Shown here in pieces: positions 2,258-64,000 of a stretch of DNA of 64,000 nucleotides. The notes beneath the pieces are model-generated. The model did no database searches and was not told where the DNA came from. It was given only the letters and a program-made list of their open reading frames with translations. Source of the DNA: Octopus vulgaris (taxonomy: Eukaryota); contig OX597822.1 in assembly GCA_951406725.2 (NCBI GenBank), positions 106,020,001-106,084,000 of the forward strand, read 5' to 3'. The translations under genes were made by a program, and so were the position numbers. The number at the start of each line of letters is the position of its first letter. Positions within the stretch are counted from its first letter, which is position 1.

Positions 2258-3327
2258 AAGTTGGAAACTGTATGGAAGCCTATCGAAAACACCATTCCTG
2301 CTGTTGGTTGATGGCATTAATCCGTCACCTTATTTAATAACCACACCCTATTCTCAGGTAACTTAATTGAAGTCACCTCTGTTGCAAGTTTTCGGAATAT
2401 ATTTCCGGCTTGACAATAATCCCCTTCCCTCGCTAACATTACATCAGTCGCAGACGCCTTGAATAACGCCAAAAGGGGAGGCTACTGTTATTCTCCTAAA
2501 TCATTAAATTTATATGTTTTAAAATACTTTCATGTTTTTAGATTTATAGCTCAAAGTTCTTTACTTAAATGTAAAATGCCTGTTTTTTCCTCCGAAATCA
2601 ATAAAGCCACACCTTCAGTCAAATGCTGGAGTTTATTTAATAGTTTCATCTATCAGAGCCATTGATATGCTGCCAAATCAAACAAAGAAAGGTTTGAATA
2701 TTTTTGTGGCTTTTCCGTGTAAATTTCAACTTTAATGTTATGTTTTACATTCTAGTTGTCTCATTTATCTACACAGACAAGAAAAATAACTAGGTTTAGA
2801 TTATTTATACGTTTGTTCATATCTTACAGTTTATTAAGTGTCAAACAATTTTTAAGATGTACATATTTTTGAATTTCTTTTGAAAGACTTCTGATGTAAA
2901 AATGATTGTCGAAACATTAATATCGTTGTACTTTACTAGATTAAACTGCCAGTAGTCATATACACTGATTGTTTCTTACTTCAGTTATACTTTAATATTA
3001 AAAAACTCATCTTAAATTTTTCGTCACGCGACTGTGATTTTTCCAATGGCTTTATATTCTTCAATTGATTTTCTTTATTGTTTGCATTATGCTATCAAGC
3101 ATGGAGTACGTTGTCGAGTTAATATTTTATATTCTCTTTTATTTTTGTTTACACTTGACTGTTTATAGTTTTGTTGGTTGTAGCATAAGTACCTATATGT
3201 TTATTTACTTGGTCAGTTGTAAATATGTGAGCTTGTGGTCTTATATCTGTGTTTTATGTATAATTGTGTGTTGTGGATAACTTTAATCTTAGCTTGATTT
3301 TCATCTTAACATTACTATAGCAGTGTA

Positions 3328-5839: not shown

Positions 5840-6045
5840 TCATATATATATAGGAATATAAAAACGTAATATATCTATACATATATATGTATGCATATAT
5901 ATATACATTTACATATATGTACGCATACATATATTTATACATGCATATGATATATATATTATATATATGTATGTGTGTATATATATGTGTATGTATATAC
6001 ATATATATATGCATGTATGTATGGATATATATATATATATGTATA

Positions 6046-7194
6046 TAAGTGTTTCCTGACAGACAGATCTCAACATGTTGTAGTTGAAGGGGTAAAATCA
6101 AGCCCAGCCAAAGTCAGTAGTGGCGTTCCGCAAGGCACTGTGCTGGGCCCACTTCTTTTCATCATTTACATTAATGACATTAATGACATCATCAAGCACA
6201 GCAACATAAAAATCTTTGCAGATGACTCCAAGCTACAGAAGGTCATAAATGTGGCGAGTGACCGGACATGCCTTCAGTCAGATCTACTGGCTGTTATCCA
6301 ATGGGCAGAAAAAAACAATATGCTGCTGAACGAGGATAAATTTGAGCTAATCCACTTTGGAAAAGAGGATGCCCTGAAACTCCCATACTCCCTTCCTTCA
6401 GGTGAAACTCTCGCGGCGTCCAACAACATCAGAGACTTGGGAGTAATTGTGGACAACAACGTAAGCTGGGCCACTCATATAAACACCAAAGTTGACATGG
6501 CCCGCAGAATGTGTTCCTGGATTCTCAGAACTTTCCAGTCGAGAGATATCCACACCATTATCCTTCTCTTCTCCACTTTTGCCCGACCCCACCTTGAATA
6601 CTGTTGTCCACTGTGGTCTCCCCACACAATACAAGGTATCAAAAAAGTCGAAGCACCTCAAAGGGCAATCACAAAAAAGATAGATGGCATGACAGGCCTC
6701 GACTATTGGGATGACTAGAAAAGCTAAAACTCTATTCTCTCCAACGTCGTCGTGAGCGCTACATCATCTGCATGATGTGGAAAATATTCCATCAGCATTG
6801 CCCAAATGATGTTGGCATCACCTTTAAGGTACATTCAAGGCTTGGGCCCCGTGCCATCCGCCCAAAACAAAAATCGCACTCTCATCTCATAACAACAATA
6901 CGGCACAATTATTTCACCTCAATTGGCCCCGCTCTCTTTAACATTACACCAAAACACATTAAAACAGAAACTGACCCTATAGGGTTCAAGAAGTCTTTGG
7001 ACAGATTCCTTCAAGAAATCCCGGATAAACCCCCTACACCCGGATATGTCTCTGTAAACAATAACTCTCTACTTGAGTGGGCCATAGTGCCCAAATTCTG
7101 ACTTGAAAGACTTCACCAGGTGGTGCTATTAAGTTAGACATGGCCTGGGCCAATAATGGCCGAAACCTATCAAAGTATCAAAGTATCAAAGTAT
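6046..7194 (+). mobile_element. 5'-truncated CR1-group LINE (RT domain and 3' end), one frameshift near 6712
   Basis: SGVPQGTVLGPLLF, FADD, PHLEYCCPLWSP, then YWD(R)LEKLKLYSLQRRRERY in a shifted frame; stop at 7101; (ATCAAAGT)n tail; inserted in a TA-rich array. Confidence 0.9.
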
Positions 7195-26515: not shown

Positions 26516-26915
26516 ACTATGACTATCACTGGTGTTCTTAAAACTGCCCGCCTTCTGCGACTTCTACGCGTACTTCGAAGAATCGAACAGTTCGCAGAAT
26601 ATGGAGCTGCTGTTCTATTACTCTTGATGGTATCTTTCACTCTTATAGGCCATTGGTTGGCCTGTATTTTTTACGCCATCGCAAACATGGAACGGCCTCA
26701 TTTGAAAGCAAAGGTTGGTTGGCTAGACAACCTGGCCCAAACGTTAAATGAGCCGTATCTGCCAAACGACACCACTAGTGGGCCCAGCATTCGGACCAAA
26801 TATCTCACAGCACTCTATTTCACCTTCACCAGTCTCACCAGCATCGGGTTTGGAAACGTTGCACCCAATACCAATGCTGAGAAGATATTTTCCATATTTG
26901 CTATGTTGCTGGGAT
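26516..26915 (+). CDS. KCNH2: Internal exon of an Erg-subfamily (KCNH2/6/7-like) voltage-gated K+ channel: S4, S4-S5 linker, S5, turret, pore helix/filter, start of S6
   Basis: Translation [37 protein letters not shown]...GWLDNL...[35 protein letters not shown] matches h[12 protein letters not shown]...EYGAAV...GFGNV.PNT. Acceptor ttttcAG at 26514-26515; donor GTAAGT at 26916 (phase 1). The symbol denotes the Erg subfamily, not one-to-one orthology. Confidence 0.95.
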
Positions 26916-27010
26916 GTAAGTATACCGTTTTAACATCATCATCATCGTTGTCTTAGTGCCATAATTTTCGTCATCATCATCATCATCATCATCATCATTA
27001 TTATTATTAT

Positions 27011-43814: not shown

Positions 43815-43844
<30 letters not shown>

Positions 43845-43850
<6 letters not shown>

Positions 43851-44045
43851 TATATAGAAGGAGCTTCTACAGGACTAGTACTGTTTCATTCAAGAGAAAT
43901 CTTCAAGAGAAAGCTTCCTGAAGATTTCTCTTGAATGAAACAGTACTAGTCCTGTAGAAGCTCCTTCTATATAATAAATTAATTTTACTCTGCTATGTAT
44001 TGAGTACCTTATTTACTGTGGTTAACCCCGAATCAACCCAGGACC

Positions 44046-44048
<3 letters not shown>
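43845..44048 (+). mobile_element. Penelope-type pseudo-LTR remnant with a perfect inverted arm, inside (TA)n
   Basis: 61-bp perfect inverted repeat (43845-43905 / 43919-43979) overlapping a hammerhead; (TA)n on both sides. Confidence 0.7.
43912..43962 (+). ncRNA. Type I hammerhead ribozyme candidate
   Basis: AGCTTC-CTGAAGA-T-TTC(TCTT)GAA-T-GAA-ACAG(TACTAGTC)CTGT-A-GAAGCT: 6-bp stem I, intact core, 4-bp stem III, GUA cleavage site after 43956. The stem II closing pair is U-U. Confidence 0.7.
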
Positions 44049-44081
<33 letters not shown>

Positions 44082-46951: not shown

Positions 46952-47217
46952 TATACGATAGTGTAAAATTATACACATAAGGAATCTACACCTAGGGTGA
47001 AGATTCAGCGCATTAGAGAGCCACAAAAATAATGGATAAGATTCGACAGAAACAAAAATTTGAAAATGAAAAACATTTACGATTTATGTTTTTCAAATGT
47101 TTTTCATTTTCAAATTTTTGTTTCTGTCGAATTCTTATCCATTGTTTTTGTGGCTCTCTAATGCGCTGAATCTTCACCCTAGGTGTAGATTCCTCATGTG
47201 TATAATTTTACACTATC

Positions 47218-47222
<5 letters not shown>
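46952..47222. repeat. Fold-back element (~127-bp arms, 16-nt loop) next to (TA)n
   Basis: Arms at 46952-47078 and 47095-47222; 2 mismatches and 1 indel. Confidence 0.9.
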
Positions 47223-47264
<42 letters not shown>

Positions 47265-55902: not shown

Positions 55903-56831
55903 GGTATTTTTTACCGTACAAATCTAACAGAACTTATCTTCTGTTTCATTCATTCTGGGTCGATAAATAAAGCGCAAGTCCCTGATAATGGTTTAAAAGA
56001 ATTGTTAGTTCATCAAACAAGATACGTTGTGGTGTTTGTTCTAGGTTTTTAAATTATGATGTTGTTCTAGGTGTTAAATTATTAAGTCGGTCTTTGCCTT
56101 TCCAGTAGAGAACATCGATATCGTGTAATACGAGAGACAAAGAAGACCGTCAAGTAAGGGCAACTTGTCCGGGCCTGCGCTTTGAAAAGGAACGTTCCAG
56201 ATGAAGATAACGATTATAACAGCTGGCAAAAGCCATTGATTCATACAAATCACCGACACTTCATTAATAATCCGACAATTTATCAATTCGCTCATCTGCG
56301 GTTATCTTAATGTATTCTAAATTTTGCAAAACAGAACCGAGAAACTAATAACGGACTTTCTTTCATGATTCAAGTTGTCTATGATTAGACGTTCATTTCA
56401 ACTGTGCAGGGTATTTTACTAACAGCCATCATATTTTATTAACAAGATCATCATCACAGTAGGTTCGATTTCTAGGAGCAGGAATCGAACATTTGTTAAG
56501 GAAAATCCTCTATCTACTCTGATTTATTCATCAAACACCTTTCTATATTCATTTGTCATGATTTACTGCTAATATTTATAAAACTTTCAAATGAAAACGC
56601 GTCACACAACATTAATTATAGGATTTCCTTTGAGGTAATATTAATAAATTTACTTAATAAGAACGATTCAATTAATAAACATTAATGATTCAAACATTAA
56701 TGGTTCAAACAGCGATTTCTTTTCAGCAACCAAAGCCAAAACTATTTCTTGACGTTTATCCGTTTCTTTACGACCATTTTTATTCGAAGTTGTTTTATTG
56801 TTCTTTTGTTTCCTTCTATTCCTTTTAATAG

Positions 56832-57031
56832 CATTGCTGAGTGCCGCTATATTCGGTAATGTGTCTTCAATAATGTTACGGCTCTATCAAGGAACAGAAG
56901 AATATAATGAAAAAACAGAAAGTATCAAAGAATTTATCAACTTTCACCATTTACCAAAATCCTTGGCGAATAGACTGCAAGAATCATTCCAACATACCTG
57001 GTCATATACAAATGGTATAGATATGATGAGT
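56832..57031 (+). CDS. KCNH2: Next exon of the same Erg-like K+ channel: S6 C-terminal half and C-linker
   Basis: Acceptor ttttaatAG at 56830-56831. T+CA reconstitutes Ser, giving (MLLG)SLLSAAIFGNVSSIMLRLYQGT...FQHTWSYTNGIDMMS (hERG SLMYASIFGNV...FQHAWSYTNGIDMNA). Donor GTAAGT at 57032; 200 nt; phase matches the upstream exon. Confidence 0.95.
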
Positions 57032-63524: not shown

Positions 63525-64000
63525 TCCAATTACCCAAAGCACACAAAGACAAACATCCCCTTCATCCTAGCAAGAAGAATCTGTACAATTGTCTCAAATT
63601 ATAGAACGTGAAATAAAAGACTGCAAGAACTAAAGGATGGCAATTCTCATCGAAAGACATTACTCAGCATCATTAATTGACAATGGAATAGAACGGGTTA
63701 AGACAATCGCTACCCAAGACTTACGAAAAGTGAAGCACACTCACGGTACATTAAATAGTCTCCCATATCACTCAATACACAATCCAAGAAATGCAGAAGC
63801 TTACACAATTATATACAAGAACATCCCACTACTGAGTCAAAAGCCACGTCTAAAAAGGTACTCGAAACCCATAAAATAATAAAAAGCAAAAGACAACCTA
63901 AATCACTAAAAAGCCTACTCACCAATTCAAAATTATCCAAGACAAGCCCACCACCCACCGTCAAAAAATGTGGTAGTTCCAATTTCAGGAAGGAACAATA
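63525..64000 (+). mobile_element. Penelope-like retroelement remnant (RT thumb and linker toward GIY-YIG), runs off the window
   Basis: SNYPKHTKTNIPFILARRICTIVS..RLQELK..LIERHYSASLIDNGI..LPYHSIHNPRN..KIIKSKRQPKSLKSLLT..VKKCG, with stops and frameshifts. Confidence 0.8.

What the first reader, a model, noticed from the sequence alone, without database searches (positions are those of the whole stretch)
43845..44048. Near-intact sense-strand hammerhead in the K+ channel intron, preceded by its own perfect antisense lock
Seen: a complete type I hammerhead fold at 43912-43962 (6-bp stem I AGCTTC/GAAGCT, CUGAAGA and GAAA core, 4-bp stem III with a palindromic ACTAGT loop, GUA site) on the same strand as the Erg pre-mRNA. 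Immediately upstream is a 61-bp, 100% complementary arm covering all of the ribozyme except its first 7 nt, and the unit sits in (TA)n. Established: Penelope-like element pseudo-LTRs carry minimal hammerheads and often show inverted 5' duplications. Inference: the antisense arm is transcribed first, so it would sequester the ribozyme and protect the pre-mRNA. The perfect duplex is also an ADAR/Dicer substrate, so editing could in principle unlock cleavage.
Basis: partly seen in the sequence, partly recalled or inferred. Interest (0 to 1): 0.75.

Follow-up and report, generated by a model that had tools for sequence, protein, structure and literature searches.

The report
Head-to-head Penelope stub in Erg intron
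A real hammerhead (self-cutting RNA) motif and its 61-base mirror image sit in an intron of an Erg potassium-channel gene, but this is the usual two-armed stub left by a very abundant Penelope-type jumping gene, likely two short DNA copies that ran off the capped front of its RNA and joined head to head, so the predicted silencing of the ribozyme is likely a by-product and not a switch for the channel.

Summary
Observation confirmed: a perfect 61-bp inverted repeat (43845-43905/43919-43979), a type I hammerhead at 43912-43962, in (TA)n, sense to a 29.9-kb Erg intron. It is one of thousands of insertions of a young Hydra-clade Penelope-like element (8,498 exact cut-site motifs). The arm is the family norm: 57 of 70 consecutive insertions have two divergent arms, all 57 with exactly one tail. 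The U-U pair is common in the clade, so the ribozyme is intact. The arm should lock it (about 70 kcal/mol), but it folds poorly without the arm too, and simulated editing does not unlock it. Arm 5' ends pile up 29 nt behind a conserved TATAAAT, often after an extra G (42 of 74, control 4 of 89): likely two cDNAs that ran off the capped start of one uncut RNA. Inverted arms with one tail are published; I did not find the cap run-off reading in print, but this scan noted it on other genomes, and the two-end rule in this one. No RNA reads or gene annotation were available, so cleavage, editing and intronic strand bias are untested.

The parts
43817..43846 (.). Left (TA)n target tract; last AT shared with the arm
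   Evidence: sequence
43845..43905 (-). Inverted, tail-less arm: element positions +1 to +61 (C of CUGAAGA = 0). Lacks the 5' strand of stem I and C3, so the minus-strand hammerhead is incomplete
   Evidence: tail-less ends cluster at +61 in the family
43906..43911 (+). Junction filler AGAGAA, a short re-copy of arm sequence; the same junction occurs at one other locus with a different tail haplotype (L335)
43912..43962 (+). Type I hammerhead, family-consensus at every core and stem position; predicted cut between 43956 and 43957; 43912 is the inferred transcription start of the parent element
43953..43971 (+). Native competing hairpin (8 bp, loop CUC) that buries the cut site and the 3' strand of stem I even without the arm (predicted)
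43980..44052 (+). PLE 'tail' present on one arm only; end at +130 to +134 merges with (TA)n; in full elements it continues into the 5' UTR and ORF
44049..44079 (.). Right (TA)n target tract
26525..26915 (+). Host Erg (KCNH2-like) coding exon, S4-pore-S6, upstream of the intron (matched part)
56832..57025 (+). Next host Erg coding exon, S6 end and C-linker (matched part)

Best explanation
This is a short, two-armed insertion of a young Hydra-clade Penelope-like retrotransposon into an intronic (TA)n tract, likely made when the element's reverse transcriptase primed on both cut strands, copied the front of one uncut RNA from two start points and the two copies were joined head to head; the hairpin is predicted to keep the hammerhead from folding, likely as a by-product with little effect on the Erg gene. 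Shown: family membership, copy number, two-arm/one-tail rule, shared haplotype of the arms, pile-up of 5' ends at the first base of stem I, TATAAAT 29 nt upstream, extra G. Inferred: that this base is the capped transcription start of the parent RNA; that +61 and +134 are two internal reverse-transcription starts; that both cDNAs come from one RNA; end joining by microhomology or short fillers. Predicted only: silencing of the ribozyme in the pre-mRNA.
For: Parent found: same hammerhead at both ends of a 5.4-kb unit with an RT and GIY-YIG ORF bearing Hydra motifs (in frame in L327; features). 8,498 exact cut-site 21-mers, 300 exact AAGCTT palindromic centres, 1,109 native-context copies of one subfamily. 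Census of the first 100 hits on C1 = 70 events: 57 two-armed, all 57 with one tail; 45 of 57 tight hairpins. Arms agree 35 of 35 at core position 7, where the population is 57 A: 36 T. The tailed arm reaches further 5' in 19, the tail-less in 16, equal in 10 of 45; in 4 the arms barely or do not overlap, so neither arm is simply a copy of the other. 42 of 127 arm ends lie at -7 to -4. [TC]ATAAAT starts exactly 29 nt before the A at -6 in 12 of 18 distinct upstream variants (139 of 147 redundant contexts); -7 is a pyrimidine in 30 of 30. Extra G before that A in 42 of 74 arms joined to ATAT against 4 of 89 at a control junction 7 nt downstream (Fisher p 2.5e-14). An extra G marks capped 5' ends in L1 insertions (PMC11702581). 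Only 197 copies lack the native G three bases before the cut site, against 8,498 that span it, as expected if templates are uncut; PAc also uses uncut RNA, nicks and extends both strands, and has two internal RT starts (PMC11167929). Folding.
Against: No transcript 5' end was observed; the start site is inferred from DNA copies. The control junction differs in microsatellite phase and in the letter it excludes, so the G contrast is not an exact like-for-like. In 30 junctions inspected, 10 of 20 Gs could be templated by the partner arm or a slip (by eye). The window's own copy has no extra G. AGCT is itself a palindrome, which favours head-to-head joins at -6 without any RNA end there. Many arms run kilobases past -6 (28 of 127 beyond -40), which needs priming in the downstream repeat or longer RNAs. 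A small excess of arm ends near the cut site (31 of 48 at +37 to +40 among very short pairs, by eye, 16 AGCT palindromes and 4 unrelated or tandem-type rows plus one more set aside) suggests the ribozyme sometimes cuts or RT stalls there. Census is one 28.7-Mb stretch of one contig. Effects on Erg expression are untested.
Confidence: 0.75

Rival explanations
1. Selected lock: an active sense-strand ribozyme in the Erg intron would harm the gene, and this copy persists because its arm blocks cleavage; editing could release it.
For: Arm is upstream, perfect and predicted to abolish the fold; upstream complementary inserts block ribozyme folding in vivo (PMC2817708 abstract); a fast engineered intronic hammerhead cuts mRNA 14- to 20-fold (PMC11856399 passages); tandem retrozymes are reported depleted from Xenopus introns (bioRxiv 2026.07.22.740005). 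Two arm-less copies are predicted to form a dimer through loop III (-29.4 kcal/mol).
Against: At least 57 of 70 insertions have the arm regardless of context, so its presence needs no selection. Arm-less fold probability is 4e-3 to 5e-5. Metazoan PLE hammerheads cut weakly or need protein (PMC4209133; PMC11167929). Simulated editing never brought the hammerhead within 22 kcal/mol of the hairpin, and random editing usually hits core adenosines.
Confidence: 0.08
2. Self-priming fold-back: one copy folds back at a palindrome and its reverse is synthesised, as proposed for rotifer Penelope elements.
For: Palindromic junctions are common (300 exact centres); arms share haplotype; some long pairs are near-symmetric 3-kb palindromes (L118, L123, L125); model in PMC3846280.
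Against: A fold-back of the tailed cDNA cannot give a tail-less arm that reaches further 5' (16 of 45) or arms that do not overlap (4 of 45). It does not explain the extra G or single arms that end at -6 against (TA)n (L266, L280, L282).
Confidence: 0.08
3. Ends pile up at -6 because reverse transcriptase stalls on leaving the hammerhead or because AGCT favours joining, not because the RNA starts there.
For: AGCT is a palindrome; the second AGCT at +41 also gives palindromic joins (16 of 44 rows); D. virilis Penelope has a TATA-less internal promoter (PMC2377424).
Against: Fixed 29-nt TATA spacing across variable spacers, pyrimidine at -7, and the extra G in joins to plain (AT)n where no palindrome is used.
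Confidence: 0.06
4. The 200-bp hairpin is its own non-autonomous element (MITE- or SINE-like) copied from a few palindromic masters.
For: 300 identical centres; the window's unusual junction recurs once.
Against: Junctions are highly varied and spacers run continuously from overlap to more than 8 kb; the exact palindrome occurs on several haplotypes; the twin junction L335 has a different tail haplotype.
Confidence: 0.03

Closest known systems
Hydra-clade Penelope-like elements (Craig et al. 2021, PMC8557442; passages, section 11, supplement parts 1, 2, 52 and one supplement search read), e.g. Hydra-1_Obim, Penelope-13_HM
   Same: RT plus C-terminal GIY-YIG with DKT, RWK-like, CxCX5C, CxxC and CxH motifs; (TA)n targets; canonical hammerhead, often with a U.U-closed stem II and in three families the same ACAG/CUGU stem III; 5'-truncated inverted copy and a tail on one end.
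   Different: Different family from Hydra-1_Obim (different hammerhead, visibly different protein, compared by eye); unit about 5.2-5.4 kb because of a long simple-repeat 3' UTR, against under 3 kb; tail about 70 nt against 30-40; thousands of young copies.
PAc (Poseidon of Anolis carolinensis; Frangieh et al. 2024, PMC11167929; parts 1-2 of 4 read)
   Same: Two internal RT starts that define the tail, AT-rich targets, both strands nicked and extended, uncut RNA as main template, weak protein-assisted hammerhead.
   Different: Other clade; RT starts here lie upstream of the ATG rather than inside the ORF; the paper parts read do not address inversions, the start site or a cap G.
[quoted passage not shown]
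   Same: Type I fold in pLTRs, palindromic loop III, low activity; opposite-strand pairs 100-700 bp apart already noted in Schistosoma.
   Different: Real 4-bp stem III with an 8-nt loop and short stem II with U.U instead of G10.1-C11.1.
Inverted-pLTR insertions of Adineta vaga Penelope (PMC3846280; passages read)
   Same: Head-to-head repeats with palindromic junctions, optional tail on one repeat, putative TATA box in the pLTR.
   Different: That paper proposes self-priming on an antisense template; the census here favours two primed cDNAs from a sense, capped RNA.
L1 twin priming and cap-derived 5' G (PMC11702581; passages read; twin-priming model otherwise recalled)
   Same: Both target strands prime; full-length run-off leaves an extra G; microhomology end joining.
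   Different: In L1 the inversion is a minority event and the two cDNAs cover different parts; here it is the rule and the arms mostly duplicate the same stretch.

Membership tests
Hydra-clade PLE (parent element) | Single ORF, RT followed by C-terminal GIY-YIG endonuclease | tested here: met
   YRDD and YIGMT in one frame in L327; but 79 of the first 100 of 162 listed ORF sites are out of frame at a C-run, 17 in frame (by eye). Pfam gave no RT or GIY-YIG hit.
Hydra-clade PLE (parent element) | DKG changed to DKT; RWK motif | tested here: met
   SDKTKN and RIRWRSFF (RWR, one conservative change) in L114; definition
Hydra-clade PLE (parent element) | CxCX5C linker; CxxC and CxH around conserved E and N | tested here: met
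   CNCPDKTTC, CCNLCISE, NCMH in L061
Hydra-clade PLE (parent element) | Insertion into (TA)n | tested here: met
Hydra-clade PLE (parent element) | Canonical hammerhead on the sense strand of the pLTR | tested here: met
Hydra-clade PLE (parent element) | Generally short, under 3 kb | tested here: not met
   tandem units 5.2-5.4 kb apart owing to a long 3' UTR; a tendency in the paper, not a strict criterion
Hydra-clade PLE (parent element) | Groups with Hydra RTs in a tree | not tested
   reference proteins were seen only in a supplement and compared by eye; unnamed homologues at 40-52% identity, about 700 aa
Type I hammerhead ribozyme | Conserved core CUGANGA, GAAA, NUH | tested here: met
   subfamily variation falls on N7, loop II and loop III
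Type I hammerhead ribozyme | Three helices around the core | tested here: met
   MFE of 43912-43962 alone forms stems I and III and the stem II hairpin
Type I hammerhead ribozyme | G10.1-C11.1 closing pair | tested here: not met
   U.U here, as in many Hydra-clade motifs; lowers expected rate, does not mark decay
Type I hammerhead ribozyme | Self-cleavage | not testable with these tools
   indirect only: slight excess of arm ends near the cut site
Non-LTR retrozyme | Tandem non-coding units each with a type I hammerhead | tested here: not met
   the window copy is a single inverted pair; the family does form such arrays elsewhere (277-nt and 271-nt units)
MITE / DNA transposon | Terminal inverted repeats with a fixed internal length | tested here: not met
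   one end extends 69 nt beyond the repeat, spacers vary from overlap to over 8 kb, sequence is the pLTR of an RT element
microRNA precursor | Family match at gathering score | tested here: not met
   only sub-threshold generic hairpin matches

The most novel reading that the evidence does not exclude
The hammerhead is the capped first 45 nt of the Penelope mRNA, started by a TATA promoter in the upstream repeat; a dimeric reverse transcriptase primes both nicked (TA)n strands at two internal starts on one uncut RNA and runs off the cap, so inversion is the default insertion product and seeds thousands of perfect, self-silencing double-stranded hairpins in introns; the ribozyme would act as a decapping switch for the element rather than a tool for cutting out monomers.
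Probability: 0.55. Interest if true: 0.65.

Novelty: new member of a known kind. Interest (0 to 1): 0.36.

Why it matters
For the Erg gene it likely matters little: one recent insertion among thousands. For retrotransposon biology the family is a large natural experiment on a question that Craig et al. 2021 name as open, how Penelope-like elements form tandem and inverted insertions. The census gives exact predictions (RNA start at the first base of stem I, RT starts at +61 and +134, both arms from one RNA) that one in vitro assay and one cap-mapping run would test. It also implies that a genome of this kind carries thousands of perfect intronic hairpins of about 60-70 bp, a possible bulk substrate for ADAR or Dicer (inference, untested).

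Tried and rejected
RNA evidence: no RNA holder listed as such, only contigs of guessed type and no raw reads, so ends at 43956/43957 and A-to-G sites could not be examined; contigs laid showed only substitutions also present in the presumed DNA run X15, which is inconclusive. No contig covered the unique left flank, so whether the insertion is fixed or polymorphic is unknown. Idea that small deletions near the cut site in one arm (G at +42 missing in 9 of 118 arms) record RT jumping a cleaved RNA: rejected, no such gap reached 1 in 100 in four runs of contigs, so they are likely long-read errors in hairpins. Idea that templates begin at the cut site: rejected as the main route (197 against 8,498), and many of the 30 inspected are joins through native microhomologies or point changes. 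Greedy measurement of arm lengths in long pairs failed in simple repeats for most loci; only clear cases are cited. First census script returned nothing for lack of coordinates and was rerun. Rfam and Pfam did not recognise the ribozyme or the PLE protein. Sense-versus-antisense intron test not run: no annotation. The paper on PLE hammerheads cleaving as dimers (Lunse et al. 2017, recalled) was not held. Supplements of the bioRxiv retrozyme preprint were not seen and may bear on intron depletion. A look-up of earlier scan notes by sequence returned nothing.

Full report
Observation. The sequence holds a perfect 61-bp inverted repeat, 43845-43905 and 43919-43979, with a 13-nt loop, and a type I hammerhead at 43912-43962. 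It lies between (TA)n tracts. The flanking + strand exons match consecutive parts of hERG (to residue 648 and from 649) with a GT donor at 26916 and an AG acceptor at 56831, so the ribozyme is sense in a 29.9-kb Erg intron. Rfam does not detect it. The organism was not given; an octopus is likely from genome size (2.8 Gb) and earlier scan notes, and I did not test this.

What it is. The right part has many copies at 98-100% identity (519 candidates, 40 scored). Exact counts: 8,498 copies of the 21-mer across the cut site, 300 perfect palindromic centres at AAG/CTT in which both strands carry a whole hammerhead, 1,109 copies of one subfamily in native upstream context, many as divergent minus/plus pairs 0.1-8.5 kb apart. 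Scaling 100 hits to 70 events gives very roughly 6,000 insertions. Upstream of long copies lies an RT and GIY-YIG ORF with the Hydra-clade motifs of Craig et al. 2021. Among subfamilies, variation falls on N7, loop II and loop III, the positions a hammerhead tolerates, while flanking sequence upstream varies more; this suggests the fold matters to the element.

Is the arm special? I grouped the first 100 listed cut-site hits on C1 (0-28.7 Mb) into 70 events and fetched all of them. 57 of 70 have two divergent arms, and all 57 have exactly one tailed arm; 45 are tight hairpins like the window's. This is a lower bound: one 'single' is only a 22-nt match, and another has an inverted ORF beside it (L211). 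Of the 45 tight hairpins, 18 have one whole hammerhead (the window's type), 13 have two and 14 none. The arm is therefore the normal product, and whichever strand is transcribed reads the antisense arm first.

Does the arm lock the ribozyme? Predicted yes: the hammerhead fold is 61-70 kcal/mol above the ensemble with the arm. Without the arm it is also disfavoured (P 4e-3 to 5e-5; about 2e-2 for the bare motif) because a native hairpin at 43953-43971 buries the cut site; the same holds in the parent element's context. These energies ignore tertiary contacts, Mg and proteins. Published metazoan PLE hammerheads cut weakly or need the element's protein. Simulated editing does not unlock it: all 21 arm adenosines as G leave 55 kcal/mol, as unpairable letters 22 kcal/mol; random editing of 25-50% of adenosines spared the five core ones in 2 to 63 of 200 trials and left at least 27 kcal/mol.

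How such copies form. Tail-less arms end near +61 and tailed arms near +134, both merging with (TA)n; this matches the two internal RT starts and two-strand extension shown for PAc. The arms of one insertion share their haplotype (35 of 35 at N7; chance per pair 0.53). Either arm may reach further 5' (19, 16, 10 equal) and 4 pairs do not overlap, which a simple fold-back cannot give. 5' ends pile up at -6, the first base of stem I (25 of 90 ends in tight hairpins; 42 of 127 at -7 to -4). TATAAAT begins 29 nt before that base in 12 of 18 distinct upstream variants, the rest having indels, a changed box or truncation. Arms joined to ATAT carry an extra G there in 42 of 74 cases (16 no extra letter, 10 C, 5 A, 1 T, by eye), against 4 of 89 at a control junction (by eye); a wider pattern gave G in 62 of the first 100 of 341, though 10 of 20 inspected Gs could be templated. 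An extra G is the known cap footprint in L1 insertions. About 98% of arms span the intact cut site. I infer two cDNAs primed on the two target strands, copied from one capped, uncut RNA, run to or near its 5' end and joined. The window's right arm reached -6 without a G; its left arm stopped at +1 and added a 6-nt slip copy, a junction seen at one other locus.

Against this reading. No RNA end was seen. AGCT favours joining by itself. The control is not exactly matched. Arms beyond -40 (28 of 127) need another priming site or longer RNAs. Very short pairs show some excess of ends at +37 to +40 (31 of 48 arms in 24 loci; of 44 loci, 16 AGCT palindromes were set aside, as were 4 unrelated rows, and one tandem locus is counted once among the palindromes, by eye), so occasional cleavage or stalling at the ribozyme is possible.

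What is known. Inverted 5'-truncated copies, a one-sided tail, palindromic junctions, (TA)n targeting and opposite-strand hammerhead pairs are all in print. I did not find the TATA/cap run-off account of PLE stubs in searches, which cover open papers only. This scan has noted it on several other genomes and the short-end/long-end rule in this genome; I reached both from my own counts before reading those notes, and they are not independent evidence.

Verdict. Real feature, correctly described, ordinary in kind: a new octopus-type Hydra family member. The lock is likely real as physics and incidental as biology. Interest 0.36, carried by the testable insertion mechanism and not by the Erg locus.

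Noticed in passing
G000:C2:64628400-64632200 (L007, L064) and G000:C8:91475200-91483600 (L065, L066): Retrozyme-like tandem arrays of the same family (277-nt and 271-nt units: TATA, hammerhead, tail, first codons of the ORF), each built as a minus-strand array followed by a plus-strand array, i.e. the same head-to-head plan; fits rolling copying of a small circular RNA.
   Followed up: partly
L114 and other ORF copies: 79 of the first 100 of 162 listed ORF sites are out of frame at one C-run between RT and endonuclease, 17 in frame; either a homopolymer error of the assembly, a non-autonomous subfamily or frameshifting.
   Followed up: partly
window 46953-47225 (approximate): A second fold-back of about 270 bp with near-perfect arms ending at a (TA)n tract in the same Erg intron; no hammerhead core found, unrelated to this family by BLAST.
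   Followed up: no
window 63634-63879: Remnant of a different Penelope-like element (thumb region, 31% identical over 71 aa to the long RT-GIY-YIG ORF nested in L116).
   Followed up: partly
L114 (unit positions about 2890-3080), L115, L116, L124: The family's simple-repeat 3' UTR is itself a landing site: a short hairpin copy of the same family, other PLE-type ORFs and LINE ORFs are nested in or beside it.
   Followed up: no
hairpin copies genome-wide: One arm often shows 1-3 nt deletions at GAAG-CTC-CTTC in the assembly that short-read contigs do not show; exact-match counts in hairpins are therefore underestimates.
   Followed up: yes
window 5951-7101: LINE reverse-transcriptase fragment (RVT_1, E 1e-10) of a family also seen nested in several fetched loci.
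   Followed up: no
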